The notes beneath the pieces were generated by a model. That model did no database searches. It was not told the origin of the DNA and was given only the letters and a program-made list of their open reading frames with translations. The position numbers and the translations under genes were made by a program. 46,815 bases of DNA from Bdellovibrionia bacterium (GTDB lineage Bacteria > Bdellovibrionota > UBA1018): NCBI GenBank assembly GCA_049424145.1, contig JBMSSC010000006.1, positions 1 to 46,815 on the forward strand, in the 5' to 3' direction. Within the stretch, counting starts at the first letter, position 1, and each line of letters starts with the position of its first letter. Of the stretch, positions 17,580-41,251 are shown one piece after another.

Positions 17580-17871
17580 GAGAAAGTTCTTGAAATTGAG
17601 GTATCTGGTTCTCGCAATAGCAAGAGATTGCGTAAAACTTTTCTGGGGTAAAATCTAAAAAGCACGGCAGAAGTTTCTAGATACTTTGCCCGCCTTAAAT
17701 TCGAGATGACAAGTGTCTTAAAACTTCACCCACGGAGCTCAGGAAAGTGCGCGTGGAGGAGAAGATCAGACGATATGAGGATGGAATAGTTCCGAAAATT
17801 GCAAGCTCTGAGAAACGCAAGGCGGGCTAATGCCAAGGGAAGCTGGGGTCTTTAAGGCCCGAGAGCTATTC
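17580..17871 (+). repeat. Dispersed structured repeat, copy A
   Basis: Collinear similarity to 39225-39485 (+), 35677-35970 (-) and 41079-41247 (-); shared GGGGTAAAATCT, TTCGAGAT, CACCCACGGA, ATATGAGGATGGAATA, GGGCTAAT, GGGAAGCT. Confidence 0.9.
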
Positions 17872-18081
17872 GTGCACCCACCCCCTGCAATCAGGTAGAA
17901 ATTGCATCCTGAGTTTCGGTGAATCACAAAGACATTAGTTTTAAGTCGATTCGACTTCTGCACACCATTCAGTGCAACTTGACGCAACCCCATGCAATGA
18001 GGTACAAGCATCCTTCTTGGCGAGCTTGAAAAACGCAAGTCAGATCAAGCGTTTGCAACTCGTTGAAAATATGGATAAAAC

Positions 18082-18171
18082 GGAGAGGTGGGTGAGTGGT
18101 TGAAACCGCACGCCTCGAAAGCGTGTTTACCTTAACGGGTAACGAGGGTTCGAATCCCTCCTTCTCCGCCA
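18082..18171 (+). tRNA. tRNA-Ser (anticodon CGA)
   Basis: CACGC-CTCGAAA-GCGTG anticodon arm, long variable arm, GGTTCGAATCC, encoded CCA. Confidence 0.97.
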
Positions 18172-18245
18172 TCCATCGGCTCTGCCTTCAACTTTTTCAG
18201 CTTTTTTTGAATGGCACCCACCATCAAGTGAGTAGACCCCTTTTT

Positions 18246-19604
18246 TTAACTGAGCACATTTTTTTGGGTCGTCTCGGGTAAGGCTTCCATGCGAGAGGGG
18301 ATCGAGATCCCATAGTGCTTGATCTGGCGATGCACGGTGGATGGGTTTTTCCCTAAAATCTTTGCTGCATGAGTCCGGTTCCCCTTAGATTGCTCGAGGG
18401 CGTGAATGAGTTTGGAGCGATCGTCAGAGGAGTCGAAATCGAGGGTCTCCGTTTTTTTGAGGAGGTAGTTTAAGACGGCTTCTTCATCCAACTCTTGCTT
18501 TTCACAAAGCGTCACAACTTTTTGAGCAAAGTGGGAGAGCTCTCTTACGTTTCCAGGCCAGCCATAAGAAAGCAGGAGGGGGAGGGCCTGAGCACGAATG
18601 GGGAAGGGGTGACCGTCTGAGAACTCCTGAATGTACTTGGTCAGATAGAGTTGCACGTCCTCAGGCCTTTGTCGGAGAGGGGGGATGTGAACTTCAAAGG
18701 TATTGAGGCGATAGTACAGATCCTCCCGAAACTCATCTAAGAGAATCATTCGAGGGATGTTCTTATTTGTGGCTGAGATGAATTGGACTGAAACTTTTCT
18801 AGGCTTTGAATCTCCTAAGCGTCGCACTTCCCCCTCTTGAATGACTCGAAGGAGTTTGGCCTGTAGATCCAAGGAGCAATCCCCGATCTCATCGAGAAAA
18901 AAAATTCCGTTATGGGCATGTTCAATGAGTCCCACCTTATCCGTTAAGGCACCTGTGAAAGCCCCTTTGCAGTGGCCAAAGAGCTCGGATTCGGCCATGT
19001 CTTTTGGGATGGCAGCCATGTTGGCTGTGATTAAGGTTTTTTTGCTTCGAGAGGCAATGGTTTTAGCCATGTACTCTTTTCCCGTGCCGCTCTCACCCGT
19101 GATGAGGATGGAGGGTGATTGGCCTCGAGCCGAGATTTTGTCCACCTCCATGAGAACTTTTTTCATTTTAGGAGATGCCGTTAAAAAATCAAATGCTCCA
19201 TTCTTATGGGAGGCTTGGAGTTTTTTTTGAATGAGCCCCGTTTCAATCGCATTTTGTAAGTCGATCTCGGTATCATCATCTTTGGCAATAAACTGAGTGT
19301 GTCGCCTTTGGGTTGCTTGGACGATTCGTTTTGTTTTCTTGTCATTGCTGAAGACCACAATGGGGATTTCATGAAAATTCATCGAGATCCAGTCCATTAA
19401 AACCAGTCCGTCTTCGGCTTGAGCCTCAAAATTCAAATCAGTGACAATGAGATCGATTAAGTTATTGTTGAGAACCGCTTTGGCCAAAGGAACGGAGGTC
19501 GCTGTTTTGATCTCATAGTGATTCTGAAAACTCATTTTGAGGGTTCGAAGAACGAGTGGGTCATCATCGACGAGAAGGAGTTTCGCCTGGGCAGATTCAA
19601 TCAT
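18246..19604 (-). CDS. Sigma54-dependent response regulator (NtrC/AtoC family)
   Basis: REC (LLVDDD, TDL), GESGTGKE, GAFTGA, FLDEIG, WPGNVREL, Fis-type HTH. Confidence 0.95.
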   Translation of the reverse strand: MIESAQAKLLLVDDDPLVLRTLKMSFQNHYEIKTATSVPLAKAVLNNNLIDLIVTDLNFEAQAEDGLVLMDWISMNFHEIPIVVFSNDKKTKRIVQATQRRHTQFIAKDDDTEIDLQNAIETGLIQKKLQASHKNGAFDFLTASPKMKKVLMEVDKISARGQSPSILITGESGTGKEYMAKTIASRSKKTLITANMAAIPKDMAESELFGHCKGAFTGALTDKVGLIEHAHNGIFFLDEIGDCSLDLQAKLLRVIQEGEVRRLGDSKPRKVSVQFISATNKNIPRMILLDEFREDLYYRLNTFEVHIPPLRQRPEDVQLYLTKYIQEFSDGHPFPIRAQALPLLLSYGWPGNVRELSHFAQKVVTLCEKQELDEEAVLNYLLKKTETLDFDSSDDRSKLIHALEQSKGNRTHAAKILGKNPSTVHRQIKHYGISIPSRMEALPETTQKNVLS

Positions 19605-20818
19605 AAGAGCACCTGAAAGCAGGCTCCACCCAGAGAAGAGGTCTCATAGATGATCCGTCCCCCATGGGAGCGGACGATATAGGCAGCGGAAGCCAGTCCT
19701 AATGCAGGTCGATCGGCTTTGGTAGAGCTTTTTCTACCTTGTAAATAAAGTCCCACCTCACTTGCGGGAACCCCAGGACCGTCATCCTCTACTCGAATGC
19801 AAAGGGGGCGATGGGCTCCAGATAAAGAAACTCTGAGGCGTTCCCGTTTAGCGTGCAAAGCATTTTGTATGAGGTTGGCGAGCGCTCTTCTGAGCAGGTC
19901 TCGGTCATGAGCCAGGAGGATCTCTTCATCGGGAAGTTGACATTCGATCGTTGGGGCAGGACTCGAATGGATGGAATACCAAGCATCTTCGATGGCCAGT
20001 CGAAGGGTGGGAACCAGGTTTTGGACCGGTAGCGATTGGGGCTCGAGATTCACCAGATATTTTCCTGCGGCCATTTGTCGACCCAGTTGATCGACGGTTT
20101 CTTTCATTAATTCAAAGACTTCGCTTTGCATTGAGGGATTTTTTTGGCTCTTTTCAAAGAGTTGAAGTTGGTTCTTTAAGGCTTTCCCGAGCTTTTCAAG
20201 GTCATGAATCAGATGTTTTTGGGCCTGATGGGTGAACTCTTGGGCTTTCAGCTGAGCGAGTTTGACTTGTGAATCCTGTAGAGATTGCCTTAGGTCGTGT
20301 TGATTCGTCCAAACCTCAACGAGAAGTGAATCCAGTTCTAAAAGACCTGAAATCGGCGGGGCCTTCTCCAAGAGAGGGTTGGATGAAATAAGGTGGACGG
20401 AGGCCTTAAACTGCTCAAGTGGCTCAAGCCTCTGATCCAGAAGAGCCGAGAGTTTTTTGATCCAAAACTTTCTCACTACCCATGTGGAGAGAAAAGCCAA
20501 TCCAGTCATTCCCTGACTGAAGGTCAAAAGCGTGTGGGAGAGTGATGGGGTAAAGTTTTGAATTTGGATACCCAGTTCAGCCGGAGTGGTGGCTTGCCCC
20601 CTTCTCTGGGGCTCTCGGTTGAGGGAAGGGATCGGATTTTCAAGAGGGTGCGCAGAGGGAAGGTGAAGTTGGACTACTCTTACTCCAATGAAGCTGCAGA
20701 GGAGCAGGATTCTTAAGCTCCAGAGCGTGATGGAAATCCAAAAGCAAGCGGGATTCAAAAGCGATTTGAAGTGTTCAGCTAAAGTCCCGTTGATCGGAGA
20801 GGAATGTGACTCTGTCAT
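19601..20818 (-). CDS. Membrane sensor histidine kinase
   Basis: Two TM segments, H-box LIHDL, N-box ANLIQNA, DDGPGV, ALGLA (variant G2 box); coupled to the regulator. Confidence 0.85.
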   Translation of the reverse strand: MTESHSSPINGTLAEHFKSLLNPACFWISITLWSLRILLLCSFIGVRVVQLHLPSAHPLENPIPSLNREPQRRGQATTPAELGIQIQNFTPSLSHTLLTFSQGMTGLAFLSTWVVRKFWIKKLSALLDQRLEPLEQFKASVHLISSNPLLEKAPPISGLLELDSLLVEVWTNQHDLRQSLQDSQVKLAQLKAQEFTHQAQKHLIHDLEKLGKALKNQLQLFEKSQKNPSMQSEVFELMKETVDQLGRQMAAGKYLVNLEPQSLPVQNLVPTLRLAIEDAWYSIHSSPAPTIECQLPDEEILLAHDRDLLRRALANLIQNALHAKRERLRVSLSGAHRPLCIRVEDDGPGVPASEVGLYLQGRKSSTKADRPALGLASAAYIVRSHGGRIIYETSSLGGACFQVLL

Positions 20819-20994
20819 AAATTACTCTGAACTCAAGTTTGCGATCCAGGAATCTACCCATCCTTTTGTTGAAGTGAGTTCAGTGACTAACATAAAACGT
20901 TGAAAAAACAAGTATCAATAAAAAGAGTTTTATCTAGTATTTTTATTTTATGAAAATCCATGGAATTCGACTTCGGTCTTGTTTCAAGACCCTA

Positions 20995-21045
20995 CCCTTG
21001 CATGAAATGCGAGAGTCTCGTGCAAGGGTCTTGCGGAAATCCGCA
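20995..21045. promoter_or_regulatory. Putative enhancer (UAS) palindromes for a sigma54 activator
   Basis: CCCTTGCA(20995)...TGCAAGGG(21028) and TGCGGA-AA-TCCGCA (21032-21045), about 100-150 bp upstream of a -24-like box. Confidence 0.4.
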
Positions 21046-21142
21046 TCTGTTCAGGAGAAAGAAGGATTTGCTGTTTTTGTGTAACTCTATGAATTTAAAT
21101 GAGATTTAATCTATTTTAAAAAATATCATTTTTTTAAGGATT

Positions 21143-21158
21143 TGGCACGGTTCTAGAA
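21143..21158 (+). promoter_or_regulatory. Putative sigma54 -24/-12 promoter (imperfect -12)
   Basis: TGGCACGGTTCTAGAA versus consensus TGGCAC-N5-TTGCW. Confidence 0.45.
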
Positions 21159-21211
21159 TTAATGGGATTTGCCGAACTCGATGGGTTCGGTTGAATATAA
21201 AGGAGGTAACT

Positions 21212-21400
21212 ATGAGAATGAGCTTTTGTCCGAGATGCAGTGAAAGGGGTTTTGAGTCTTTGAAAACTCATTCTTACTGCATTAACTGTAACTATTATCC
21301 GGAAGATTACTCTTCTAAACTGTTTCATCATAAAGGAGTCTTGAGTGCTGAAAATCGAAAGAAATTGACGAAACACGCTCGGCAGTTAGACTCCGCCTGA
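21212..21400 (+). CDS. Small zinc-ribbon protein
   Basis: AGGAGG at 21201-21206, ATG 21212; CPRC...CINC; 62 aa. Confidence 0.75.
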   Translation: MRMSFCPRCSERGFESLKTHSYCINCNYYPEDYSSKLFHHKGVLSAENRKKLTKHARQLDSA

Positions 21401-21720
21401 TGACCTTTAGGATCAGGTTTGAATAGAACCAGAAGAGAAGCTCTCTGAATTGAGTTTCGTTTTGGGAGTCTCTCTTCAGTTAGGGTTAAATCAAAATGAC
21501 AAGAGTATGGATCTTCGGGGAAGTCATCAAGAGACTAGAACTCACGGCTGGAGATGAGTGAATTCTGGTCACGAAGAAAACACCTGCTTTGATCCAAAAG
21601 AACCAAGCTGAGTCATCCTGTGGATTCATCCACGAAAGACTAAAAAACTTTGGACTTTTTTTGGCGCGAAGTAGGTGTTTTCAAGTGTGTACCCCACCTG
21701 ATGCTCTTTGATTCCCAGAT

Positions 21721-22809
21721 TTACTGAGCTTGCATGAGGTTCAGGAAAAAGGGGATTTCCATCGGGCTTAAGACTGCTCGATTTCTCAGGACAATGAGGG
21801 CCTTTTGATCAGCCGGGTAAATCATGAGGAAGCTTGAAAACCCATCAGTCAGCCCATGGTGCCAGAAGATGGGGTTTCCCCGAGAAGAGTTTTGAAGCAT
21901 CCATCCTAGTTTCAGATCCGCTCCTAACGATGAAAAAGTAAAGTTTTGAGTCAACGCCATGGCGTTCCCCAAGGGCGTTTGAGGAGGTCTCAGTTGTGCT
22001 TGAGCAAAAAGAAGGAGATCCCTCATTGTGGATCGAAGCCCTCCTGCTCCGACTAAGGCCTTCAGTTCAAAGGGTGGCACAGGAAATCCAAAAAGATGGT
22101 GTCCTTGCAGCAGACTCCCTGTTTGCGCCAAGGGGATTCTCACTGTCGTGCCCGCCATTCCCAGGGGTTCCGTGATCTGCTGGGTGATGAGTGTCTCAAA
22201 ACCCTGCCCTGACACCTGAGTGAGTACTCGTTCCAGCAGAGAAATCCCCACATTAGAGTATTGAAAAGCCATGAGCCCTTGGTTCAAATGGACCCGTTTT
22301 AAGAAGTGGATGAGCTGTTCATGGGTGCAGTTGGAGTAAGGATAACCACTCCGGATGGACTGGGTTCTCAAGAGATCAGTCAAATTCCATGGATCAAAGG
22401 GGTCTCGTGGGAGTCCTGAGCTGTGCGTGGCAAGTTGAATCAAGCGAATTTGACCAGCTGGTGTATCCCTCAGCTCAGGCAGAAAGAGCTCTACGGGGTC
22501 GTTCCATCCGAGTTGGCCTTGTTCAACTAAAAGAGTGAAGCTCAGTGTGGTGAAGAGCTTGGTTAGAGATCCGATTTCATAGAGTCTCTCTAAGGGAGCC
22601 GCTTGATCCTGTATCGGAGAGTTCCCAAACGTTTGATACTGAGAGCCATCTGAGTCAATCCACCCCACAAGGATTTGCTCCTTCGGGAACAAAAGACTTT
22701 GGTTTTGGAAGTACCCCTCCAGCGCACTTGGAAGGTGGGCCGCGTAAATGGGGCTTTCTACTGTGATGAGGAAGGTAAGAAAAATCAGAAATTTAAAAAA
22801 AACGATCAT
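21721..22809 (-). CDS. Serine hydrolase, beta-lactamase class C/PBP-like
   Basis: SLTK (SxxK), YSN, HHG triad motifs; LATHSSGL; signal peptide. Confidence 0.9.
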   Translation of the reverse strand: MIVFFKFLIFLTFLITVESPIYAAHLPSALEGYFQNQSLLFPKEQILVGWIDSDGSQYQTFGNSPIQDQAAPLERLYEIGSLTKLFTTLSFTLLVEQGQLGWNDPVELFLPELRDTPAGQIRLIQLATHSSGLPRDPFDPWNLTDLLRTQSIRSGYPYSNCTHEQLIHFLKRVHLNQGLMAFQYSNVGISLLERVLTQVSGQGFETLITQQITEPLGMAGTTVRIPLAQTGSLLQGHHLFGFPVPPFELKALVGAGGLRSTMRDLLLFAQAQLRPPQTPLGNAMALTQNFTFSSLGADLKLGWMLQNSSRGNPIFWHHGLTDGFSSFLMIYPADQKALIVLRNRAVLSPMEIPFFLNLMQAQ

Positions 22810-23039
22810 GGTCCATTCTCAGTGAGAACATCATCTTCTCATGATCTCGGTCAAGGAGTGGTCCAGAGGGGGGAAGTCTTGAAAAAATAATGAGTTCATC
22901 TTCGCGTTTAAAAAGATTTCAATCTAATAAACAGAAATAAAAAATAATTCAATTATAATTTGATTTGAATGAAAAAAATAAATGAACTTTCTAGCTTGAG
23001 TCACTTGAAATTCGTTTTAAAAAAAAACGAAGAGAAGAC

Positions 23040-23657
23040 TTACTCAGAGAAAACGCAAAGATACGTGGGGCCTTTTTTTTGAGTCAGGCTCCCAGGCCTT
23101 AGCTCTATGACCGCTTGCGTTGAATCCGAGGAGTAAAGCCTTGTTGGATTCTCTGGGTTTTGCTCAACGGCCATCTCCTCAAGTCGAAGGAGGTGCCCTT
23201 GGGCGTTGAAGAACGCAATTTGGAGCGGAATCAAGGTTCTTTTCATCCAAAACGAGCGCATTCCCTGATCTGGATAGATAAAAATCATACTCTCTTGTTT
23301 TGAAAGTTCGTTTTTTCTGAGACTCAACCCCCTTGCCATCGTTTCGGCTTGGATTGCGACTTGGGCTCGAGTTTTTTTGTAGATCAATCGGCATTCGGGT
23401 TGATGGGAAAATCCGAGAAGGAGCTGACTTTGATCCGCGGCGGGTGGGGATGCCGGTAGAAGCCAGGAGGTCCAAGGAATAAAACCAAAAAGGAGTCTCC
23501 AAGAGGGGTTCTGATTTAATTTTTTTGTTTTTTCAAGTGGGGAGAGGAATTTTTTGCCGAGTATTTTCGTATATTTAAAAATAAACATAAATAAAATATA
23601 ATAAAAAAACAGGAGATCTGCTTCTGAAATTTTTAGATCATTGGTCTTTTCGAGCAA
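23040..23657 (-). CDS. DUF192 domain protein
   Basis: RGLS.R, MIFIYP, FWMKRTLIPLQIAF, VIEL..G; true start probably well downstream of 23657 (AT-rich 5' part looks intergenic). Confidence 0.8.
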   Translation of the reverse strand: MLEKTNDLKISEADLLFFYYILFMFIFKYTKILGKKFLSPLEKTKKLNQNPSWRLLFGFIPWTSWLLPASPPAADQSQLLLGFSHQPECRLIYKKTRAQVAIQAETMARGLSLRKNELSKQESMIFIYPDQGMRSFWMKRTLIPLQIAFFNAQGHLLRLEEMAVEQNPENPTRLYSSDSTQAVIELRPGSLTQKKGPTYLCVFSE

Positions 23658-25465
23658 AGCTGACGGGTCTTATTTTCTCGCTGATTGTGACTGCTGTGGG
23701 GGGAGCGACTTTTTTCTTCCTGAAGCTTTATAAGAAAGATAAGCTTGCGTCAGTTTTTCAGAGCGAAATTTCTAATACCACTCAAATTTCAGACCATCTT
23801 GAGAATCTCCTGAATCTTGCGAAATCGATTGAGCCCAGTAAAGTTGCAGTGTCAAAGACCTTGATCTATCTCGGAGAAAACCCCTGTGACAAAGCTCACC
23901 GAAAGCCCGGTGTTGTCTCTGAATTCTACACTCGTCAATTGAAAGATTTGGAGATTAACCCTGAGATTTGGGCTGAAAGCTTTGAGCTGTTTCAGGCGTG
24001 CTCCAAGCTTTCACTGGGATCGGCTCAAATGAGCAATCAAGGAGTCGACAAAGTGGTGATTGTTGCCTCGTCCGTTCAGCTCATGCAGCCCTACCTGGTC
24101 GCGCTGATCCAAGTGGGTGAAACCCAGCGACTGGCTGTGATTGCGATGGATGGGTTTACCACGGCTGCTGCCAATACGATTTTTTTGGCCGACGCTCAGG
24201 GAAATACGCTTTGGGCCGCTGATGGGGAGAGTTATCTAAAAAGTGCTCTGTTAGACACTGGGGTGACTGTCACTGATATCGTGCAGTTCACCCAAAAGGC
24301 CATTGACTCGAGTACGCCTGAAGTTCGCCAGGCGGGCCGCGAGGGCTTGATTTCTTCTGTGAAGCTAGGAGAGGACTGGGCGGTTCATTCTCTGTCCTAT
24401 GAGCCCACGACTCTGCAGCCAGTGGCCTATGCAACTTCTCAATCTCTTCTGCTTGCGGCTGGGTTTATTTTTCTCTGTCTTTTTATCGGGCGAAGGGGGT
24501 CTGTCCTCGTCACTCGTCCTTTGAACGAGCTGAGTTTGCATGCTGAGCGTCTGGGAAAAGGCGATTTCTCGAGTCGAATTACAGTTTTTGGAACAGATGA
24601 GATCTCCGTGGTGAAAGCCGCATTTAATCTCATGACGGATCGGATCCTTCAGCTCATTGAGAGTACGAAGCAAGCGGTGGCTTTGGAAAGGGAACTGGAG
24701 CTTGCCGAGCAGATTCAAAAAATGTTGATTCCAGAAACCTCCTTGACCAAGGGATCCACTCGAATTGCAAGTTACCTTCAAAGTGCCAATCATTGTGGGG
24801 GTGACTGGTGGGGCTATTTAGAGCATTCGCGTGGAGAGGGGAGAAGTCCCCTGATTCTCCTGATGATCGGAGATGTGACAGGCCATGGAACGTCCTCTGC
24901 TCTGATTACAGCGACAGTTCGAGGGGGGTTATCAATTCTTGAGAGTTGGCTCAAGACGTTGCCCAATCAGGAGATTGATCCAAGGCTCATTAATAACTAC
25001 TTTAACCAGGTGGTTTACCAAGCTGCTAAAGGTGCGATTGGCATGACTTTTTTTACGGCAATTATTGACCCGGATGAGGAAAAACTAAGGGTGGCCAACG
25101 CGGGCCATAATCTTCCCTATGCATTAATGAAGTCACCTGAGAGTTCAGACTTAGAAGTTAAATCGATAGGTAAAGCCAGTGTCCCTCTGGGCTATGCACC
25201 TGATACGGTCTATGAGGAAATGGAAACCTATCCCTGGATTTCTGGTAGCAGGCTTGTTCTGTATACCGATGGCTTAGTCGAGTGCATGGAGAACGGCACC
25301 AATCTTTATGACCGAAGGCAATTGAGGAAAGCCTTAAAATCCAATGGACGATTGCAGGCTGATTACCTTCTGAACAAGCTTTTAGCGGATCGAAAAAAAC
25401 GCATCAAAGACCTCCCTTCAGAAGATGATGTGACGGTGGTCATCTGTGAGGCTTTATCTTCATGA
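23624..25465 (+). CDS. HAMP-domain SpoIIE/RsbU-type PP2C phosphatase
   Basis: HAMP, ELELAEQIQ, CGGDWW, GDVTGHG, ANAGH, YTDGL, EDDVT; frame open upstream to CTG 23624 with AGGAG at 23611 (ORF track starts at GTG 23687). Confidence 0.9.
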   Translation: MKFLDHWSFRAKLTGLIFSLIVTAVGGATFFFLKLYKKDKLASVFQSEISNTTQISDHLENLLNLAKSIEPSKVAVSKTLIYLGENPCDKAHRKPGVVSEFYTRQLKDLEINPEIWAESFELFQACSKLSLGSAQMSNQGVDKVVIVASSVQLMQPYLVALIQVGETQRLAVIAMDGFTTAAANTIFLADAQGNTLWAADGESYLKSALLDTGVTVTDIVQFTQKAIDSSTPEVRQAGREGLISSVKLGEDWAVHSLSYEPTTLQPVAYATSQSLLLAAGFIFLCLFIGRRGSVLVTRPLNELSLHAERLGKGDFSSRITVFGTDEISVVKAAFNLMTDRILQLIESTKQAVALERELELAEQIQKMLIPETSLTKGSTRIASYLQSANHCGGDWWGYLEHSRGEGRSPLILLMIGDVTGHGTSSALITATVRGGLSILESWLKTLPNQEIDPRLINNYFNQVVYQAAKGAIGMTFFTAIIDPDEEKLRVANAGHNLPYALMKSPESSDLEVKSIGKASVPLGYAPDTVYEEMETYPWISGSRLVLYTDGLVECMENGTNLYDRRQLRKALKSNGRLQADYLLNKLLADRKKRIKDLPSEDDVTVVICEALSS

Positions 25466-25478
25466 GGAGTCACATGCG

Positions 25479-29214: not shown

Positions 29215-29222
29215 GAGGATTT

Positions 29223-31027: not shown

Positions 31028-31131
31028 AGTGGCTTGAATTATTACCTAAAATGCCTTTTGAATCAAATGGCTCTTGGGTTCCGGTCTTTTTGGAGTGAAT
31101 TTTGGTTGGACTTTAACGCAGCTATGCTAGA

Positions 31132-32412: not shown

Positions 32413-32729
32413 GCTGGGTTCTGTTAGTGGCTGCGATTTTCTTTGAAACCTCAGGCACCCTCTGTCTGAAATTCTCTCAAGGATTCACTCGCCTGTGGCC
32501 AACCCTAGGGCTGGTCGTCTTCTATGCGCTTTGTTTCTTCTGCCTTTCACTTGCCGTCAGAAAAATTGACCTGGCCATTGCCTATGCCGTTTGGTCGGGC
32601 GTGGGGACGGCTCTCATTACGACGTTTGGTGTTTTGTTTTTTAAGCAGGCCCTTACTCCTCTCCAAGTTTTCTTTCTCGTTTTAATTATGATTGGAGTGG
32701 TGGGCTTAAATCTCGTCTCCCAGCGTTGA
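32409..32729 (+). CDS. SMR family multidrug efflux transporter
   Basis: 106 aa, four TM, membrane Glu (FET), AYAVWSGVG. Confidence 0.92.
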   Translation: MSWVLLVAAIFFETSGTLCLKFSQGFTRLWPTLGLVVFYALCFFCLSLAVRKIDLAIAYAVWSGVGTALITTFGVLFFKQALTPLQVFFLVLIMIGVVGLNLVSQR

Positions 32730-32853
32730 CAGGACTATGGCTTCCGATCGGATCTAGCAAGCGCCCCGTTTCAGAAGTGCAGGTCTAACGGCCCTAAGCC
32801 ACACGTCTGGCGCGGCGGGGAGCACGATTAGCTTCTGATCACTTTTTTGTGAG

Positions 32854-32900
32854 AGGCTTGCTCAGCATGTGAAAAGACTGAAGCAAGCCTTTCATTTTGT
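32854..32900. terminator. Probable terminator between convergent SMR and tex genes
   Basis: AGGCTTGCT...AGCAAGCCT stem followed by T-rich tract. Confidence 0.5.
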
Positions 32901-32936
32901 TTTTTGCCCATCGATTCAAAATCAGCCGTCAGGCTC

Positions 32937-35363
32937 TCACTTGGGTTTCAGTGAGCTTTTTAAAGCAGCGAGGCCGGCAAAAGCATTATTAAACACCTCT
33001 TTAGGCTTTTTCTGCGCATGAATCGGGGAAGGTCCTCCAGGAGCTCTTCGCTTGATGGAGTCCGCGGACCCTCCACTGGCTTGAGAAGGGGAGTGGGGAA
33101 ATTTTCGGTCCCCGCGCGGTTGAGGGGAGGAGAAGCTCCCTTTTTTTCCGGCCACAGCCACCGGAGGAGCTTTGGGTCGTTCTTGCGTATTTTTCATGGA
33201 AAGTGAGATTTGGTTCTTCTCCACATTCACTTCCAGAACTCGCACTTTGACCTGATCCCCGGGACTGACTACTTCCTTGGGGTCCTTGACGAAGTGATCA
33301 CTGAGTTGTGAGATGTGAACCAGTCCGTCTTGGTGAACGCCGATGTCCACGAAGGCTCCGAAGTTGGTGACATTAGTGACAATCCCCGGGCAGAGCATGC
33401 CTGGCTTTAAATCCTTCACCTCAAAGACATTTTCAAGAAATTGAAATGGAGTGAACTGCTCTCGTGGGTCCCGTCCTGGTTTTTCAAGTTCCTTGATGAT
33501 GTCCTCATAGGTAAATTCACCTACTTGGGCTTTAAAAGCAGGGTTGCTCTTAATCAGAGAAACTCCAGAACCGGTGAAGTCTTTCACTGACTTACCCAGT
33601 TGTTGGGCAAGCGCGTTGAGCTTCTCGTAGTTTTCTGGGTGAACGCCGGTGTTATCCAGAGGATTTGAACTATTGGGGATTCGTAAAAATCCGGCCGCTT
33701 GCTCAAAGGCTTTCTTACTGAAGCGATCGACTTTCAGGAGATCCTCTCGGGATTGAAAAAGTCCCTTTTGGTTTCTAAATTCCACCAGCGACTTAGCTAA
33801 GCTAGGACCGATTCCCGACACATAGGAGAGCAAGTGGTAGGAAGCCGTGTTGAGGTTCACACCGACTTGGTTGACGCAAGATTCCACGACACTGGCAAGG
33901 CTTCGTTTTAAAGAATGCGGTGAGACGTCGTGTTGATACTGTCCCACTCCAATGCTCTTGGGATCCACCTTCACCAATTCGGCCAATGGGTCTTGAAGCC
34001 TTCTTGCGATGGAAATGGCACCGCGAACCGTTAAGTCTAAATCGGGGAATTCCTCGCGTGCCGCTTCACTGGCGCTGTACACACTGGCTCCAGATTCGCT
34101 CACCATGATGACTGGGATTTTGATATCATTTTGAACTAAAACCTTACGAATGAAGGTTTCCGACTCTCGGCCTGCTGTTCCGTTTCCGACTGCAATGCAG
34201 GAGAGTCCTCCCGTTTTTACGATCTCACAAAGCAGGACTCCTGCTTTTTCTCTCTCGGCTTCGGAGTTGAGAAAAATGACCGTACTTGCAATGTACTTTC
34301 CAGAATCATCAACCACGGCGATTTTACATCCCGTTTTCACTCCAGGATCCACGCCTAAGACTGATTTAGCGCCATAAGGGGCTGCTAATAGCAGTCGCCT
34401 GAGGTTTTCTGCAAACACATCAATGGCTGAAGCATCGGCCACTTCCCTTAACGCCTTGTGAATTTCATTTTCAATGCTCGTTAGAACGTGCGCTTTAAAT
34501 GCCAAGTGGGCTGCGCGAAGAAGGATTTCTCGCCCTGGAGATTCAGCCAAGGTGGTGGCTTCATTTTCAAACGCTCGGAGAAGATTTTTTTCAAACTCGG
34601 CGTCATCCATAGGGCCTTCAATGGAGAGAATGAGCTCCTCTTCTGTCCAGCCGCGCTTCATGGCCAAATACCGATGCGAGTTTTGAGGAAGCAGCAGGGA
34701 GGCAATGCCTTCACGGTACTCAAAGTAGTTTTCAAACTTACTGTTGGGCTTTGCTTTTTTGCCCTTCTTGGTTTGAATCGTTCCTTTGGAGAAAAACTGC
34801 TCTCTCACCAGTTGCCTGAGGTGTTGAATTTCTGAGATCCTCTCAATGAGAATATCCTGAGCCCCGGCAATGGCTGCAGCGGCATCAGGAATGTCTTTGG
34901 CCTCATTCCTAAAAGTAAAGGCCCAGATCTCTAAGGTTTGCCCCGGATGAGGCGTCTGTAGGCCATGCCCACAATCCCAAATCCACTGAGCAAGAGGCTC
35001 CAGTCCCGCTTCTTTGGCCGTTGCCGCACGGGTTTTTCTTTTGATCTTATAAGGAAGGTAGAGGTCTTCTAACACTTCGGGCTTAAACGTGGAGAGAATT
35101 TGGGCTTTGAGCTCAGCAGTGAGCTTTTTCTGGCTTTCAATTTCCCCGATGATAAAAGCCTGTCGCTTGATCAGGGTGTCCCAGCGTTCCTTGCCTTCGA
35201 TAATGTTCTGAATGGCCACTTCATCTAAGCTTCCGGTGCGCTCTTTTCGGTAGCGAGCGATAAAAGGCACGGTGGCTCCTTCTGCCGAAAGCGAGAGAAC
35301 CGCTGTCACAGAGGGTAATGGAATCTCAGGATGGATTGTTTGTAACCAGGTTTCAAAATTCAC
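32937..35363 (-). CDS. tex: Tex family RNA-binding transcriptional accessory protein
   Basis: GATVPFIARYRKE, YqgF-like GVDPG..TGCK, ARRLQDPLAELVK, HhH, C-terminal S1 (FGAFVDIGVHQDGLVHIS); GGAGG before GTG. Confidence 0.95.
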   Translation of the reverse strand: MNFETWLQTIHPEIPLPSVTAVLSLSAEGATVPFIARYRKERTGSLDEVAIQNIIEGKERWDTLIKRQAFIIGEIESQKKLTAELKAQILSTFKPEVLEDLYLPYKIKRKTRAATAKEAGLEPLAQWIWDCGHGLQTPHPGQTLEIWAFTFRNEAKDIPDAAAAIAGAQDILIERISEIQHLRQLVREQFFSKGTIQTKKGKKAKPNSKFENYFEYREGIASLLLPQNSHRYLAMKRGWTEEELILSIEGPMDDAEFEKNLLRAFENEATTLAESPGREILLRAAHLAFKAHVLTSIENEIHKALREVADASAIDVFAENLRRLLLAAPYGAKSVLGVDPGVKTGCKIAVVDDSGKYIASTVIFLNSEAEREKAGVLLCEIVKTGGLSCIAVGNGTAGRESETFIRKVLVQNDIKIPVIMVSESGASVYSASEAAREEFPDLDLTVRGAISIARRLQDPLAELVKVDPKSIGVGQYQHDVSPHSLKRSLASVVESCVNQVGVNLNTASYHLLSYVSGIGPSLAKSLVEFRNQKGLFQSREDLLKVDRFSKKAFEQAAGFLRIPNSSNPLDNTGVHPENYEKLNALAQQLGKSVKDFTGSGVSLIKSNPAFKAQVGEFTYEDIIKELEKPGRDPREQFTPFQFLENVFEVKDLKPGMLCPGIVTNVTNFGAFVDIGVHQDGLVHISQLSDHFVKDPKEVVSPGDQVKVRVLEVNVEKNQISLSMKNTQERPKAPPVAVAGKKGSFSSPQPRGDRKFPHSPSQASGGSADSIKRRAPGGPSPIHAQKKPKEVFNNAFAGLAALKSSLKPK

Positions 35364-35384
35364 TGCAGCTTACCTCCAAATTAC

Positions 35385-35970
35385 GGTCCTCGTTTGTGAT
35401 TTCCTCTTTGCCCTTCAAGGTGGAATCTCCCCGTCTCGATTAAGCCGCTTTCAGCGGCTTCCACTTGAAACGAATCGGGCTTTTGGCCTCACGCCTCGTT
35501 CTGCCATCGACCGTTTTGTCATTTCGGTCGTCCCATTTACGGATTCCCTGCGTCCCTTTCTCACTGGGCCCAGGCTTTTTCAAATCCGGTTGAGCAGAGG
35601 AGATCGATGTTTCAGACCGGTCAACAGTTCTCTTGGGATGTCTTGCGACTGGATCTGTTAGAAGGAATCGGATGGAGTGAAGGGCTCTCTGGCCTAAAGA
35701 CCAGAGCTTCCCGGGGATTAGCCCGGTTCGCGTTTCTTTGGACATGCAATTTTCGGAATATTCCATCCTCATATTGTCTTATCTTGCCCTCCGCGCGCAC
35801 TTTCCCACCTTCCGTGGGTGACGTTTTTAGAAACTTGTAATCTCGAACTCACGAAGCGCCAAGTTTCTTGAACCTTCTTCGTGCTTTTACAGATTTTACC
35901 CCACATAAGTTTTGCGCGATTTCTCGCTAATGTGGGAACCTTGTATCTGTTTTTTCAAAGAACCAATCTC
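35385..35970 (-). ncRNA. Candidate large structured RNA upstream of tex (longest copy, B, of the dispersed repeat)
   Basis: Many helices on minus strand, GNRA loops, predicted pseudoknot; 5' half (35677-35970) shared with three other copies showing compensatory changes; boundaries approximate. Confidence 0.65.
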
Positions 35971-36072
35971 CTTTTAACGCTCTCAAATCCGGAAGGCAAG
36001 CGCTAAGCTCCCCTTAAAGAGCGCTAAAAAATTGGGTTCAATCTCGGGGTAACCCTGCTAAGGTGCTTGACA

Positions 36073-37899
36073 ATGACACTCTTGGTTAATGCATTTCAAC
36101 TCAGTAAAGCCTTTGCAGCGCGTCCTCTTTTTGAATCCATCACGTTTTCCATTGAATCCGGTGATCGAATTGGACTGATCGGACCTAACGGAGCTGGAAA
36201 ATCAACCTTGCTTCGGATCCTCGCTTCACAAATCTCCTGTGATGAGGGCACTCTTTCGTTTATGAAAGGCCTTCAAGTGGCTTTCTTAGAGCAAGTTCCG
36301 GTCTTCTCCCCTCAAGCGACACTGTTGTCCACGCTCTTGGAGGGCGCCCCAGATCCTGAGGACTGGAAGGCTCAAGGCAGCGCTCAGCAGTGGCTGTCGC
36401 GACTGGGATTTGACGGCTCGGGCGATTTGCGCGTGGACACGCTCTCTGGAGGGCTCAAAAAGCGAGTGGCTTTAGGCCGGGAGTTAATGAAAAATCCAGA
36501 TCTTTTACTCTTAGATGAACCCACAAACCATTTAGACATTCAAGGGGTCCTGTGGTTGGAGGAGTTTTTGTCTCACGCTCGATTTGCAACCTTAACCATC
36601 ACTCATGATCGGCTTTTTTTACAACGAGTCGCCAGCCGCATTTGGGAGCTGGATCGAAGAAACCCAGGAGGGCTATTGAGTGTCTCGGGTGACTACTCCG
36701 TCTACTTGGATGTCAAAGAGCAATTCATTGCCTCTCAGGAGCGGAGGGAGCAGGTTTTAAAGAACACCCTTCGCCGAGAGACTCAATGGTTGAGGCAAGG
36801 GGCAAAAGCTCGAACCACCAAGCAGCAAGCTCGAATCCAAAGAGCTCAAGATCTGGGTCAGGAGGTTCAGGATCTGGAGTTTAGAAATCAATCCCGGCAA
36901 GTGAGACTGGATTTTCAGGAGTCCGAGAGAAGTCCAAAAAAACTCATTGAGGCAAAAAAAATCTCGAAATCCTATGGGGAGAAAAAAATTTTCTCCTCTT
37001 TAGACGTTTTGATCACGCCCGGGAATCGACTGGGTCTTTTGGGTCAAAATGGCTCGGGTAAGTCCACATTGATCCGCGTTCTTTTGGGCCTGGAGAAGCC
37101 TGATGAGGGAATGGTTTTCAGATCCGAGAACCTGAAAGTGGCTTACTTTGAGCAGAATCGAGAAACTTTAGATCCGACTTTGAGCGTTGCCCAAACCCTC
37201 TGTCCTCAGGGGGACTTTGTTCAGTATCAAGGGAATCGAACCCATATTCGAAGCTACTTGGATCGTTTCTTGTTTTCTCAAGATCAAATGGAAATGGCTG
37301 TAGGCAAGCTCTCCGGAGGAGAACAAAGCCGCTTGGCCATTGCTCGGCTCATGTTACAAGAAGCCAATGTTTTAGTCTTAGATGAGCCCACCAATGATTT
37401 AGATCTCCCCACGCTTCGGGTTTTGCAGGATTGTCTGGTCGAGTTCTCAGGCGCTGTGATTTTAGTGACCCATGATCGATACTTTTTGGATCAAGTTGCC
37501 ACCCAGATCCTGGCGTTTGAGGATCGTTCTGGCGAATCCTCCTGTGTCTTTTTTTCAAGCCTAGATCAATGGGAAGACTGGCATCGGACCCAGGCTCAAA
37601 AGCCCGCGGCGCCCCAAGCACCCCTGAAGCCCGCGGCTTCAGAACCCGGCACGCCCTCCGTTTCACCGGTCGAAAAAAAGAAGAAGCTCAGCTACAACGA
37701 GCAGCGCGAGTTGGACTCCATGGAAACCAAGATTCAACAAGCGGAATCCTCATTGGTGGAGTGGACTCAAAAAAGTGAACTTAAAGAAAACCAGTGCAAT
37801 CCCATGAAGCTTGTTGAAATCACCGAGCAGATGCATCAGTTGCAGGCGGAGATTGATCGGCTCTATGCTCGGTGGGCAGAGCTTGAGGCCAAGACTTGA
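36073..37899 (+). CDS. uup: ABC-F family ATPase (Uup-like)
   Basis: Two NBDs (GPNGAGKS, GQNGSGKS, LSGG, DEPTN), KARTTKQQARI linker, C-terminal KKLSYNEQREL...RWAELE. Confidence 0.88.
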   Translation: MTLLVNAFQLSKAFAARPLFESITFSIESGDRIGLIGPNGAGKSTLLRILASQISCDEGTLSFMKGLQVAFLEQVPVFSPQATLLSTLLEGAPDPEDWKAQGSAQQWLSRLGFDGSGDLRVDTLSGGLKKRVALGRELMKNPDLLLLDEPTNHLDIQGVLWLEEFLSHARFATLTITHDRLFLQRVASRIWELDRRNPGGLLSVSGDYSVYLDVKEQFIASQERREQVLKNTLRRETQWLRQGAKARTTKQQARIQRAQDLGQEVQDLEFRNQSRQVRLDFQESERSPKKLIEAKKISKSYGEKKIFSSLDVLITPGNRLGLLGQNGSGKSTLIRVLLGLEKPDEGMVFRSENLKVAYFEQNRETLDPTLSVAQTLCPQGDFVQYQGNRTHIRSYLDRFLFSQDQMEMAVGKLSGGEQSRLAIARLMLQEANVLVLDEPTNDLDLPTLRVLQDCLVEFSGAVILVTHDRYFLDQVATQILAFEDRSGESSCVFFSSLDQWEDWHRTQAQKPAAPQAPLKPAASEPGTPSVSPVEKKKKLSYNEQRELDSMETKIQQAESSLVEWTQKSELKENQCNPMKLVEITEQMHQLQAEIDRLYARWAELEAKT

Positions 37900-37934
37900 C
37901 GGCGTCATGAAGATAGAAAAAGATCACCTCGGCC

Positions 37935-38696
37935 CTACGGGGTTTGCTTGCGCATTTGGATTTGAACAAAGCCCCTGAACTTGGACTCCGTTCGATCCCA
38001 GGTGGCCATGGCTTGAAGAAGAGCTTCCTCTGAAACCCAGTAGGGTTCATACCAACTGCGATCTGGATCTAAAATTAAGACTTTCTTCTTCTCTGCATCA
38101 TACGCGCCCACGGGGGAGTAGTGACCGACTGGGGCATCTCCAGTGAGGGTTCCCTGCAGAAAGTTCACCACAAGAAAGGCTCCCTGGGGTGTTTCACTTT
38201 CCACAAGCGCTGCATGAAGCTTTTTTCGGCTCTCCTCCAAGGTGTTATCGATATGAACCGTTCGGATGGATGCCGTGGGGATTTCAAGTCGTTCGGCGGC
38301 CTCTTGGATAGCCTCGGCCATGAAGTCGAGCCCCACGCCTCGTCCGCCTTGAGTGAGCCAGTTTTTCCAAGCACGGCTTTTGGCGTTCTTAAGCACGTCG
38401 TCTTGAGTGATGAGTGGCGTATCGGCTGAGAGTTTTTGATGGGCTCGAGCTGCATTGAGAATGAGAGTGACCGATGCAACCGAACATGCCGCACCATCTC
38501 TTTGGCCCGTATAGTAGGGGATCAGTTGCCAAAAGTGAGGGGCAGGGTGCCCTTGGAAATACTCAGGGGCAAGAGAAAGGGGGGTCGCCTCGGGTCCATA
38601 TTTCGGTTTCGGGGCTGAAAATCCTAAGACGGGCTGACCACAGAGGAAAACAAGGATCCACGCAAATGAAGTCTGGGTTCGGAAGCGATTTGGCAT
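37935..38696 (-). CDS. Phytochelatin synthase family protein (exported)
   Basis: Cys (ACSVAS), His (GHYSPVGAYD), Asp (LILDPD) papain-like triad; signal peptide. Confidence 0.88.
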   Translation of the reverse strand: MPNRFRTQTSFAWILVFLCGQPVLGFSAPKPKYGPEATPLSLAPEYFQGHPAPHFWQLIPYYTGQRDGAACSVASVTLILNAARAHQKLSADTPLITQDDVLKNAKSRAWKNWLTQGGRGVGLDFMAEAIQEAAERLEIPTASIRTVHIDNTLEESRKKLHAALVESETPQGAFLVVNFLQGTLTGDAPVGHYSPVGAYDAEKKKVLILDPDRSWYEPYWVSEEALLQAMATWDRTESKFRGFVQIQMRKQTP

Positions 38697-38933
38697 GATT
38701 CAAAAGATACCGGAAGTGCTCTGGATTCATCCAGTTTTTTGTTCGCCTTGCTCTTTTGTTTTGAGTTTGCTAGAAGAATTGAGGAAAGCAAAGCGAGAGA
38801 TCCAAGGTCCGTCGTTGACACAGCCCGGGCCAAGTTGTAATGTCTCGTTCAGCCCAATTGGACCGATCTTAAAACTTATTTTTCGACAAGAAAATCCAAT
38901 TTTAAGATCCCTGTTTTTTGAAAATAAAGATGC

Positions 38934-39023
38934 GGAGAGATGGCCGAGTGGTCGAAGGCACTCCCTTGCTAAGGGAGCAGCGGGTAAAACCGCTCGAGAG
39001 TTCGAATCTCTCTCTCTCCGCCA
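38934..39023 (+). tRNA. tRNA-Ser (anticodon GCT)
   Basis: CTCCC-TTGCTAA-GGGAG anticodon arm, long variable arm, GTTCGAATC, encoded CCA. Confidence 0.97.
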
Positions 39024-39224
39024 TTTTTAAAAAACAACCATTCTCAATAGCTTTCAAACTTTCTCAATCTAAATGCTTATCCAGAGATCATCGCCATTGC
39101 GTTGTGGAGCGCTAGACTTGTTGACGTTGATCCAAACTTTTTAGCCTGCAAACCTCTGGTTCTTCTCCGTTAGGGGGAGTTAGGGCTTTCCCTGTTGCCC
39201 TCCAGTTTTCTATCCGCAATCCCC

Positions 39225-39485
39225 GAGAAAGTTCTTTGCAATTTAGAAAACTTTTGCGGGGTAAAATCTAAAAAGTACGGCAGAAAGTTCTAGACACTTG
39301 GCCCTCCGTGAGTTCGAGATGGCAGTGTCTCAAAACGTCACCCACGGAAAGTGGGGAAGTGCGTGTGGAGGGCAGGATCAGACGATATGAGGATGGAATA
39401 TTTCCGAAAATCGCAAGCTCTGAGAAACGCGAATTGGGCTAATCCCCCGGGAAGCTCTGGTCTTTCAGACTGGGGAGCTGTTCAC
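39225..39485 (+). repeat. Dispersed structured repeat, copy C
   Basis: Collinear with copies A and B; short internal deletion near the 5' end. Confidence 0.9.
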
Positions 39486-39693
39486 TTTGGAAAAGCGCAA
39501 AGTGATCCAGGTTTCACCGTCTCACAAATCAAGTGTGGTCCTAAGGACTCTCGTCTGTTTGAGTGGAGTGAGCCGATGAGACACCTCAACATTTACTTAA
39601 GTGTGTCTTGCTGGACTCAGGCTTGATTCTACTAAAGTTTTTTATAAAATTAAAAAATTTATAATACTAATTTTATGCTATAGTAAATAAAGT

Positions 39694-40899
39694 ATGAATA
39701 AAATAATAACAATTAATCACCAGTTTGTTTTGTTTGCTCTTGTAATCATGATCTCAGCTTCTTTTGGTTGTAATGGAGCCAATGACTCGAATCAAGCCAG
39801 TCAATCGGCGGGAGGAAGCGCTCATTTCCGGAACGATCGTGTCGCTGTTGGTGGTTACCATTCGTGCGGAATTACTTTATCAGGCGCTTTAAAATGCTGG
39901 GGTTTGAATGCTGATGGTCGAGTAGGCAACAAGACTGAAACGGGAGATCAGCTCAGCCCGGTTGCAATCGATAGGGGCTCGACGTATTCACAGATTTCAG
40001 CAGGAGAGTCTCACACTTGCGGGATTACAGGCACTGGGATTGTTAAGTGCTGGGGCTCTGACAGCACTGGCCAATTAGGAAATGGATCTACGACGGGTGA
40101 CCAAGTCGCTCCAGTTGAGATCGCGTCCGACAGTGATACGACTTACTCACAGATCGCAGCAGGAGGGCATCATACATGTGCGATTACCAGCGCAGGTGTA
40201 TTACAGTGCTGGGGTTCTGACGGCAATGGCCAATTAGGAAATGGACCTACATCGGTTAACCTGAGCTCACCCATTGTAGTTGATGAAGGTACTCTTTATT
40301 CTCGGATTGCAGCGGGAGATCGTCATACATGCGGTATCACCAGTACGGGGATTTTAAAGTGCTGGGGTTCTGACACCAATAACCAAATAGGAAATGGGAC
40401 AGGAACGGTAGATCAGAACGATCCGGTGGAGATCGATCGTGGAACCAGCTATTCGCAGATTTCGGCAGGATACCACCACACCTGTGGCATCACAACTGGG
40501 GGCGTATTAAAGTGTTGGGGGAAAAATTATTCCGGTCAACTAGGAGATGGTTCGACTGGAGGCGAGGAGGCTTTACCGGTTGAAATCGATCGTGGGACCA
40601 CTTATTCACTGATTGCAGCGGGAACGAACCACACCTGTGGAATTACAAGCACTGGGATCTTAAAATGTTGGGGTCATCAAAATTTCGGTGCTTTGGGAAA
40701 TGGCCTGACCGGCGGATTAGAGGGCTCTCCGGTTGAAATCGATCGTGGGACTCAGTATTCCCAGCTTGCGACTGGAGATCGCACCACCTGCGCGATCACA
40801 GTCGAAGGGGACTTTAAGTGCTGGGGGCGGAATACCAATGGTCAGATTGGAGATGGATCCACGAATGATGGCTCTTATCCAATACCGATTAGTTTTTAA
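39694..40899 (+). CDS. RCC1/BLIP-II repeat beta-propeller lipoprotein
   Basis: SFGC lipobox; seven repeats of AG..HTCGIT..G.LKCWG....GQLG.G. Confidence 0.92.
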   Translation: MNKIITINHQFVLFALVIMISASFGCNGANDSNQASQSAGGSAHFRNDRVAVGGYHSCGITLSGALKCWGLNADGRVGNKTETGDQLSPVAIDRGSTYSQISAGESHTCGITGTGIVKCWGSDSTGQLGNGSTTGDQVAPVEIASDSDTTYSQIAAGGHHTCAITSAGVLQCWGSDGNGQLGNGPTSVNLSSPIVVDEGTLYSRIAAGDRHTCGITSTGILKCWGSDTNNQIGNGTGTVDQNDPVEIDRGTSYSQISAGYHHTCGITTGGVLKCWGKNYSGQLGDGSTGGEEALPVEIDRGTTYSLIAAGTNHTCGITSTGILKCWGHQNFGALGNGLTGGLEGSPVEIDRGTQYSQLATGDRTTCAITVEGDFKCWGRNTNGQIGDGSTNDGSYPIPISF

Positions 40900-41078
40900 A
40901 AGCGCTTTTCCGATTTGCAAAAAAACGCTAAATTTTACGGTCCGCATCCAGATCGCTCGATTGAATGGAGAAGAGCAAGGGACTCTATTACTAGTGGCGA
41001 GTCATTTAGGTGTGGGTCTAACTTAGGAATACCTGGTGTCCTTAAAAAAACAAAACGTGATCTAGAAAAATTGGTCTA

Positions 41079-41247
41079 GTGAACAGCTCTCCAGTTTGAA
41101 GCGCCAGAGCTTCCTGGGGAATGAGCTCGATTCGGGTTTTTTAGAGCCTGCGATCCTAGGAAAAAATCCATCTTCATATCGCCTTATCCTGCCCTTCGCC
41201 CGCGCTTTCTCATGTGCTGTGGATGACGTTTTGAGACACTGATCATC
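41079..41247 (-). repeat. Dispersed structured repeat, copy D (5'-truncated, diverged)
   Basis: Reverse complement shares CAGTGTCTCAAAACGTCA and GAGCTGTTCACT exactly with copy C. Confidence 0.8.
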
Positions 41248-41251
41248 CGGG

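What the first reader, a model, noticed from the sequence alone, without database searches (positions are those of the whole stretch)
17580..41247. Four dispersed copies of the same non-coding element with compensatory base changes
Seen: copies at 17580-17871 (+, A), 35677-35970 (-, B), 39225-39485 (+, C) and 41079-41247 (-, D), all intergenic. Differences preserve pairing: GCGA-GAAA-TCGC (B) vs GCAA-GAGA-TTGC (A, 17620-17631, still a GNRA loop); AGAAACT/AGTTTCT (B) vs AGACACT/AGTGTCT (C) vs AGATACT/AGTGTCT (A, U-G); CACGA/TCGTG (B) vs TACGG/CCGTG (C); GGTC/GGCC (B) vs GGTCT/AGACT (C). Indels break any shared reading frame. A, C and D all lose similarity to B at about the same point, after GAGC..TTC, suggesting a modular boundary. 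Inference: a multicopy element selected for RNA or ssDNA structure, spreading as a non-autonomous mobile unit. Four copies in 24 kb suggest more genome-wide. No transposase or reverse transcriptase is in the window.
Basis: partly seen in the sequence, partly recalled or inferred. Interest (0 to 1): 0.8.

Follow-up and report, generated by a model that had tools for sequence, protein, structure and literature searches.

The report
Gene-less transposon with boxA-led guide RNA
The four repeats are ageing copies of a small protein-free jumping element that carries its own promoter and the scaffold of a TnpB guide RNA, a known kind of passenger transposon; the new part is an extra folded RNA leader that begins with the signal ribosomal RNA genes use to avoid premature termination.

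Summary
The four copies are real, and longer than reported. They belong to a family of about 17 loci in this genome (61-87% identical). They are ORF-less IS200/IS605 elements (PATE / standalone omega-RNA type). Their left and right ends match an intact tnpA+tnpB IS605 in a sister genome. The 3' 155 nt is a TnpB reRNA scaffold: a model built from it hits the 3' ends of tnpB genes. Between the ends lie a sigma70-like promoter and a 5' leader of about 140 nt with no Rfam match. The leader starts with a motif that picks out the boxA sites of a sister genome's rRNA operons. Its first hairpin is shared with a second, younger ORF-less IS605 family also found in phages, and it covaries strongly across families. 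Within the window's family covariation is modest and copies are decaying. No intact helper TnpB was found. Best model: a trans-mobilised element that transcribes its own guide RNA, with an optional boxA leader that may protect this untranslated transcript from Rho. The identity is well supported; the leader's role is inferred.

The parts
39127..39131 (+). Copy C: transposon-adjacent motif (target pentamer, outside the element)
   Evidence: Aligned; same pentamer as the CdiIStron TAM in the passage
39132..39485 (+). Copy C, whole element (354 nt); top of domain I deleted
39149..39185 (+). Copy C left end: 4-nt DNA guide and subterminal hairpin
   Evidence: Aligns with the left end of the intact IS605 of G102; guide position inferred from the recalled IS608 pairing rule
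39195..39223 (+). Copy C: promoter-like -35/17/-10 at the family position (weak -10 here)
   Evidence: inferred
39223..39301 (+). Copy C: domain I remnant, starting with the boxA-like motif at 39231
   Evidence: R1 match E 1.5e-5
39330..39485 (+). Copy C: TnpB reRNA scaffold and right end
   Evidence: R2 match; alignment with tnpB right ends
35677..36036 (-). Copy B, whole element (360 nt); left-end hairpin partly deleted; TAM at 36041-36037
35971..35999 (-). Copy B: sigma70-like promoter, -10 ending 7 nt before the boxA-like motif
   Evidence: score 9.5 against a background 99th percentile of 7.6
35953..35963 (-). Copy B: boxA-like 11-mer at the predicted RNA 5' end
   Evidence: A profile of these columns picks the rRNA leader and spacer boxA sites of G005
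35859..35971 (-). Copy B: domain I, long hairpin with internal loops and a tetraloop cap, shared with family 2
35830..35868 (-). Copy B: domain II helix (possible pseudoknot with the 3' side of domain I)
35677..35829 (-). Copy B: TnpB reRNA scaffold and right end; the guide would be the flank from 35676 down
17507..17873 (+). Copy A: decayed copy; the left-end remnant overlaps the 3' end of the PTPS/queD-like ORF 17138-17542; right end mutated
   Evidence: R1 17578-17688; R2 17718-17875; 5' limit by eye
41079..41303 (-). Copy D: 225-nt deletion derivative, left end joined to the tail of domain II and the reRNA; -10, boxA and domain I lost; TAM at 41308-41304
   Evidence: R2 41077-41234
1..55 (+). 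Right end of a family-2 element, cut by the contig start
   Evidence: R3 match E 1.2e-10

Best explanation
An ORF-less IS200/IS605 element of the PATE / standalone omega-RNA kind. SHOWN: (1) its ends are those of a TnpB-bearing IS605 subfamily of this bacterial family; (2) its 3' half is that subfamily's reRNA scaffold; (3) it inserts behind a fixed pentamer without target duplication; (4) a promoter-like motif keeps a fixed distance to a 5' leader that opens with a boxA-type motif and folds into a hairpin shared with a second ORF-less IS605 family. INFERRED: a Y1 TnpA moved the copies in trans by peel-and-paste. The promoter replaces the tnpB mRNA that normally supplies the reRNA, so a TnpB made elsewhere can load it, use the 3' flank as guide, cut the empty site and restore the element. 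The boxA leader recruits NusB/NusE so that the untranslated 300-nt RNA escapes Rho and folds, with read-through into downstream host genes as a side benefit (about 35% for this step). The window's copies are probably old and mostly inert, and some may persist as promoters.
For: R2 (3' 155 nt) has 4 matches outside G000 among 116 order genomes; 3 overlap the 3' end of a tnpB ORF, and all three proteins pass the NCBIfam guided_TnpB cut-off. Both ends align with an intact tnpA+tnpB element in G102. Removing the phage copies restores a 104-codon ORF and an 86-codon open frame. There is a ladder of forms: intact IS605; minimal end+promoter+reRNA in a phage; with domain I; with domains I+II (window); deletion derivatives (D). 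Mean promoter score is 8.1 at one offset against 2.0-4.9 at the others. The boxA profile's top hits are the leader and spacer sites of both G005 rRNA operons (13 bits; background 9e-5 per position at 12 bits or more). Domain I shows 8.7 double changes against about 1 expected, 0 of 300 null runs. The three phage records lack TnpA and TnpB. PATEs with omega-RNAs acted on in trans are described in PMC10055086 and PMC10691335 (passages).
Against: No intact cognate TnpB and no intact TnpA was found in G000, though the assembly breaks at repeats. Transcription is not shown. Promoter weights are a recalled E. coli consensus, the copies are related, and most -10 boxes lack the last T. The boxA-like motif sits at the very 5' end and can pair with the 3' side of domain I, so it may be conserved for structure; the two rRNA operons are not independent, and the motif differs from them at one position. 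The minimal phage element has no leader, so the leader is optional. Copy C folds no better than its shuffles (z 0.19). No true empty allele of a window copy was seen.
Confidence: 0.8

Rival explanations
1. Domesticated portable promoter: the copies are kept because they drive downstream host genes, and the reRNA is baggage.
For: The next feature downstream is co-oriented in 11 of 13 family-1 copies by manual reading (automated count 9 of 13; two-sided binomial p about 0.02). These include gatC, smpB, a xerC/D-like gene, tex and a tRNA-Ser; three starts lie within about 30 nt.
Against: Young family 2 shows 9 of 16. IS200/IS605 strand bias at replication forks (recalled) could give the same skew. 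Copies are absent from sister genera at DNA level (1 of 41 genomes) and accumulate pair-breaking changes.
Confidence: 0.2
2. Decayed IStron: the 5' leader and the family-2 body descend from a group I intron fused to IS605 ends.
For: By eye four motifs recall P/Q/R/S in order. RNAalifold predicts an invariant helix with one bulged A in family 2. Two of 10 family-2 copies score near or above the 99th null percentile in a gapped motif-chain test; one pairwise test gave P 0.03 among 12.
Against: RF00028 does not hit any copy. R1 and nhmmer find nothing in 30 group I intron matches from the phylum. The ungapped chain is at shuffle level; gapped scores are 11-28 against 72-76 for real introns. A covarying nested helix competes with the P3-like pairing. 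Neither family ends in G, and IStrons were reported only in Firmicutes and Fusobacteria (PMC4227781).
Confidence: 0.1
3. The 5' half is the eroded 3' third of tnpB, now kept only as RNA structure, so the whole 300 nt is one long reRNA.
For: reRNAs overlap tnpB coding sequence. Copy C scores 4.5 bits on a TnpB profile at a collinear place, 0 of 40 shuffles.
Against: That is 1 of 19 protein-level tests; the other 18 and all nucleotide tests are at shuffle level. R1 hits none of the tnpB loci tested. Sister tnpB genes and the minimal phage element have the reRNA without the leader.
Confidence: 0.1
4. Trans-acting guide RNAs of a domesticated nuclease-dead TnpB regulator (TldR-like).
For: Multiple promoter-driven scaffolds with different guides; one leader+reRNA-like locus on a phage-like contig of G076 has no visible left end.
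Against: For 13 family-1 and 16 family-2 right ends the best TAM-adjacent second site matches at most 10 nt. No cognate TnpB-like protein in G000. Ends and scarless insertions mark mobility.
Confidence: 0.04

Closest known systems
PATE / PATE-like IS200/IS605 elements and standalone omega-RNAs (PMC10055086, PMC10691335, PMC7290912; passages read)
   Same: No ORF; subterminal hairpins; insertion behind a pentamer; right end with reRNA; needs TnpA and TnpB in trans. The terminal motif equals the ISGst2 TEM quoted.
   Different: A promoter at a fixed place and an optional boxA-led structured leader of 100-140 nt, shared between two end families. The Halanaerobium PATE-like element is only left end, tnpB tail and right end.
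Intact IS605 (divergent tnpA, tnpB) of G102, contigs C371 and C253
   Same: Left-end layout, right-end layout and reRNA scaffold.
   Different: Encodes both proteins; no leader, no internal reRNA promoter seen.
IStrons (CdISt1/CdiIStron, ORF-less BcISt1; PMC4227781, bioRxiv 2023.11.20.567912)
   Same: IS605 ends around a long structured RNA that may soften the cost of insertion; same TAM as CdiIStron in the C-type copies.
   Different: No group I core by five tests, no terminal G, an internal promoter.
boxA/Nus antitermination of rRNA operons and CRISPR leaders (PMC5725501 and PMC7862264, passages)
   Same: A boxA-type motif at the start of a long untranslated RNA.
   Different: Here it lies inside a mobile element and at about +1; function untested.

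Membership tests
IS200/IS605 non-autonomous element (PATE) | Subterminal hairpins at both ends | tested here: met
   left hairpin partly deleted in B, decayed in A
IS200/IS605 non-autonomous element (PATE) | Insertion 3' of a fixed pentamer, variable 3' flank, no target duplication | tested here: met
   One of two pentamer variants in 7 of 8 G000 left ends aligned; flanks differ; phage joints restore ORFs
IS200/IS605 non-autonomous element (PATE) | DNA guide tetramers that pair with TAM and TEM | tested here: met
   By eye: the last guide base changes with the last TAM base (C, C19, C26 and the phage copy against G102 and G071); degenerate in B-type copies. Pairing rule recalled; principle
IS200/IS605 non-autonomous element (PATE) | No protein-coding capacity | tested here: met
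   Indels, no codon periodicity, no TnpB remnant
IS200/IS605 non-autonomous element (PATE) | Autonomous relative with the same ends | tested here: met
   G102 C371 and C253; none intact in G000
IS200/IS605 non-autonomous element (PATE) | Excision and insertion by TnpA in trans | not testable with these tools
   Needs an excision assay
TnpB reRNA (omega-RNA) | Scaffold homologous to that at tnpB 3' ends, ending at the right end | tested here: met
TnpB reRNA (omega-RNA) | Expressed and able to guide TnpB | not testable with these tools
   No bench assay; no RNA data to hand
IStron / group I intron | Group I core (P/Q/R/S, P3-P7 pseudoknot) | tested here: not met
IStron / group I intron | Terminal G at the right end | tested here: not met
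   one short G071 copy ends in G, probably by decay
boxA (nut-like) antitermination site | Sequence like the host family's rRNA boxA | tested here: met
   one genome with two operons; G000 has no assembled 16S
boxA (nut-like) antitermination site | NusB/NusE binding and Rho resistance | not testable with these tools
   Bench test
TldR-type domesticated guide RNA | Guides match TAM-adjacent genomic targets; dead TnpB present | tested here: not met

The most novel reading that the evidence does not exclude
ORF-less IS605 elements of Bdellovibrionota and their phages have captured a portable 'promoter + boxA + folded leader' cassette and swap it between end families. It recruits the host's rRNA antitermination machinery to make TnpB guide RNA without any mRNA and to carry transcription through the insertion into downstream genes. 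That would be a splicing-free counterpart of the IStron strategy for making an insertion harmless.
Probability: 0.3. Interest if true: 0.75.

Novelty: new variant of a known kind. Interest (0 to 1): 0.5.

Why it matters
How standalone omega-RNAs are expressed, and why hosts tolerate them, is open; PMC10691335 calls their role unknown. This family gives a natural ladder from intact IS605 to promoter-driven reRNA, with and without a boxA leader, plus cognate TnpB and TnpA genes in sister genomes, so each step can be tested in E. coli. If the leader works as proposed, it is a transposon exploiting Nus antitermination and a ready-made cassette for expressing long guide RNAs. If not, it remains an unannotated covarying RNA motif. 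For annotation, the two families explain many contig breaks in this genome.

Tried and rejected
Rfam: no match at gathering level in the window; at E-value level only sub-threshold Transposase-2 hits on the right end of 2 of 8 loci, and nothing meaningful on 12 related loci. No match in plasmid or phage collections. B as DNA hits 1 of 41 genomes. R1 hits 1 of 151 phylum genomes. Of 13 genome contigs pattern matches only 2 were real; of 8 viral matches one was the locus already held and the other 7 failed R1. Group I intron ancestry: five kinds of test, not supported; the gapped test was designed after the ungapped one failed. Two helices were mistyped by one column and were redone. tnpB coding relic: not supported. 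Regulatory guide targets: none. Family-1 domain II is not detectably homologous to the family-2 middle (z 0.0). No RNA holder listed. DNA contigs of four runs showed no joint that skips a whole copy. IS110 bridge RNA, HEARO, 6S, SRP and ribozyme readings were considered from memory and dropped: no Rfam hit, and the ends are explained. Literature: no paper held TnpB+boxA+antitermination or Bdellovibrionota+non-coding RNA+TnpB; searches listed nothing on such a leader. No supplements were read; end alignments in the supplements of PMC10055086 and of the two bioRxiv preprints could bear on novelty. A scripted look-up of motif positions was not completed, so sub-element coordinates are hand-read and may be off by 1-2 nt.
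Full report
OBSERVATION. The four copies exist as described and lie between genes. In the whole genome (G000, 2.69 Mb, 193 contigs; Bdellovibrionota according to earlier scan notes, and in line with the titles of related records) nhmmer gave 25 matches at E<0.01. Twenty are pieces of about 17 loci of this family (family 1); five belong to a second family. Nine aligned family-1 copies are 61-87% identical and split into a B-type and a C-type group. B folds better on the element strand (z -3.7) than on the reverse (z -1.7); C does not beat its shuffles. Rfam has nothing at gathering level.

THE ENDS. Downstream it stops at a hairpin plus a terminal pentamer. Both ends align with those of an intact IS605 (divergent tnpA, tnpB) in sister genome G102. 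The C-type TAM equals the CdiIStron TAM (passage) and the terminal motif equals the ISGst2 TEM (passage). By eye the last guide base changes with the last TAM base, as the recalled IS608 rule predicts. I have no empty allele for a window copy. In two phage contigs, removing the element restores a 104-codon ORF (family 1) or an 86-codon open frame (family 2), which fits scarless insertion.

THE 3' HALF IS A TnpB reRNA. Covariance model R2 matches 14 family-1 loci in G000 and 4 places in 3 other genomes of 116 searched. Three of the four overlap the 3' end of a tnpB ORF (guided_TnpB above cut-off). R2 did not match the other TnpB loci tried, apart from a second G102 IS605, so it is subfamily-specific. 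The structure includes a 4-bp pseudoknot, 93% paired; tree-aware support is P 0.01-0.03. The 3' flanks, which would be the guides, have no second TAM-adjacent site longer than 10 nt: they are plain flanks, as in homing, not regulators.

THE 5' HALF. A -35/17/-10 pattern ends 7 nt before domain I in family 1 (mean score 8.1 over 11 copies; other offsets 2.0-4.9; background 99th percentile 7.6) and mostly 8-10 nt before it in family 2, while the spacers diverge (weights recalled). Domain I is a long hairpin with internal loops; domain II is a 9-bp helix, perhaps part of a pseudoknot. Domain I is shared with family 2 (z 6-10), a younger ORF-less element of about 410 nt with different IS605 ends. 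Family 2 has at least 16 right ends in G000, mostly at contig ends, including window 1-55. Its right end resembles that of an intact IS605 in G060, whose TnpA is 91-94% identical to a frameshifted copy in G000. Model R1 finds domain I in 4 of 116 order genomes, 1 of 151 phylum genomes and three phage records that lack TnpA and TnpB. It was not found beside any tnpB locus tested. Tree-aware covariation is strong across families: domain I 8.7 double changes against about 1, family 2 41 against 3, both 0 of 300 null runs. Within family 1 it is modest. That test is my own Fitch-based shuffle on structures derived from the same alignments, not R-scape. A profile of the first 11 nt of domain I, taken from family-2 rows, gives as top hits the leader and spacer positions of both rRNA operons of G005, where boxA is expected (consensus passage).

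A LADDER OF FORMS. Intact IS605 (G102); minimal left end + promoter + reRNA, 272 nt, in a phage; the same plus domain I (a metagenome contig and G071); plus domains I and II (A, B, C and five more in G000); deletion derivatives (D, C60). The leader is therefore an optional module that has moved between end families.

HOW IT WORKS. Shown: identity of the ends and the reRNA, scarless insertion in phage relatives, modular leader. Inferred from established IS605 biology (PMC10055086, PMC10691335; passages): TnpA moves the element in trans, and TnpB in trans uses the reRNA to cut the empty site and restore the element. Inferred here: the promoter stands in for the lost tnpB mRNA, and boxA recruits Nus factors to protect an untranslated RNA from Rho, as proposed for CRISPR leaders (passage), with read-through into host genes. 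Downstream features are co-oriented in 11 of 13 family-1 copies by manual reading (automated 9 of 13) but 9 of 16 in family 2; replication-strand bias is a confounder. G000 holds no intact cognate TnpB, its assembled TnpB has a different right end and an early stop, and its tnpA copies are broken or cut by contig ends. The window's copies are probably relics.

RIVALS. Group I intron descent was tested in five ways against 30 intron matches from the phylum and is not supported beyond a weak hint. Descent from tnpB coding sequence is not supported. The origin of domain I is unexplained.

PAPERS SEEN. Passages only: PMC10055086, PMC10691335, PMC7290912, PMC4227781, PMC13521648, PMC5725501, PMC7862264, bioRxiv 2023.11.20.567912 and 2023.11.30.569447. 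The others were search listings; no supplements were read. Searches found no paper joining TnpB with boxA, or with Bdellovibrionota non-coding RNA; the library is incomplete.

VERDICT. A real feature; a known kind (PATE with reRNA) in a new variant with a shared boxA-led leader. Interest 0.5.

Noticed in passing
window 1-55; G000 C70:11451-11863, C114, C27, C2 and many contig ends; L051, L108, L110; G071: Family 2: a young ORF-less IS605 element of about 410 nt with a 310-nt RNA of roughly ten covarying helices and no Rfam match, also in three phage records. It is the stronger structured-RNA candidate of the two families.
   Followed up: partly
alignment A7 (family 2): One antisense frame is stop-free over 106-108 codons in 6 of 10 copies (83 in a seventh), without codon periodicity or a conserved start. 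Unexplained.
   Followed up: partly
L159:2394-2665: The minimal family-1 element sits antisense in the start of a phage gene; a 16-nt duplication in its left end rebuilds the gene's start. The same phage record also carries a family-2 element.
   Followed up: partly
L076:12150-12441 (G076, phage-like contig end): Promoter, domain I and a reRNA-like segment with no visible left end; the contig ends before a right end.
   Followed up: partly
L167:900-1920 (G005): A family-2 element broken up by antisense pieces of what looks like an IS110-type transposase (family recalled, not scanned).
   Followed up: no
G000 C157:3480-4664, C128, C60:2397-2690: A third TnpB family with a different right end; the longest copy has an early in-frame stop, and a family-2 element abuts the C128 remnant.
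   Followed up: partly
L128-L157: Group I introns, many in tRNA genes, in 24 of 151 sampled genomes of this phylum; one appears to carry an ORF (L128, not checked).
   Followed up: no
window 3505-3680: A 31-bp inverted repeat followed by a 14-nt pyrimidine-rich tandem repeat.
   Followed up: no
window 39694-40899: Secreted-looking RCC1-repeat gene with AT-rich flanks, bracketed by copies C and D in inverted orientation, a layout that would allow inversion or capture.
   Followed up: no
window 16590-17542: Two tandem PTPS/QueD-like genes; the C-terminus of the second runs into the left-end remnant of copy A.
   Followed up: no
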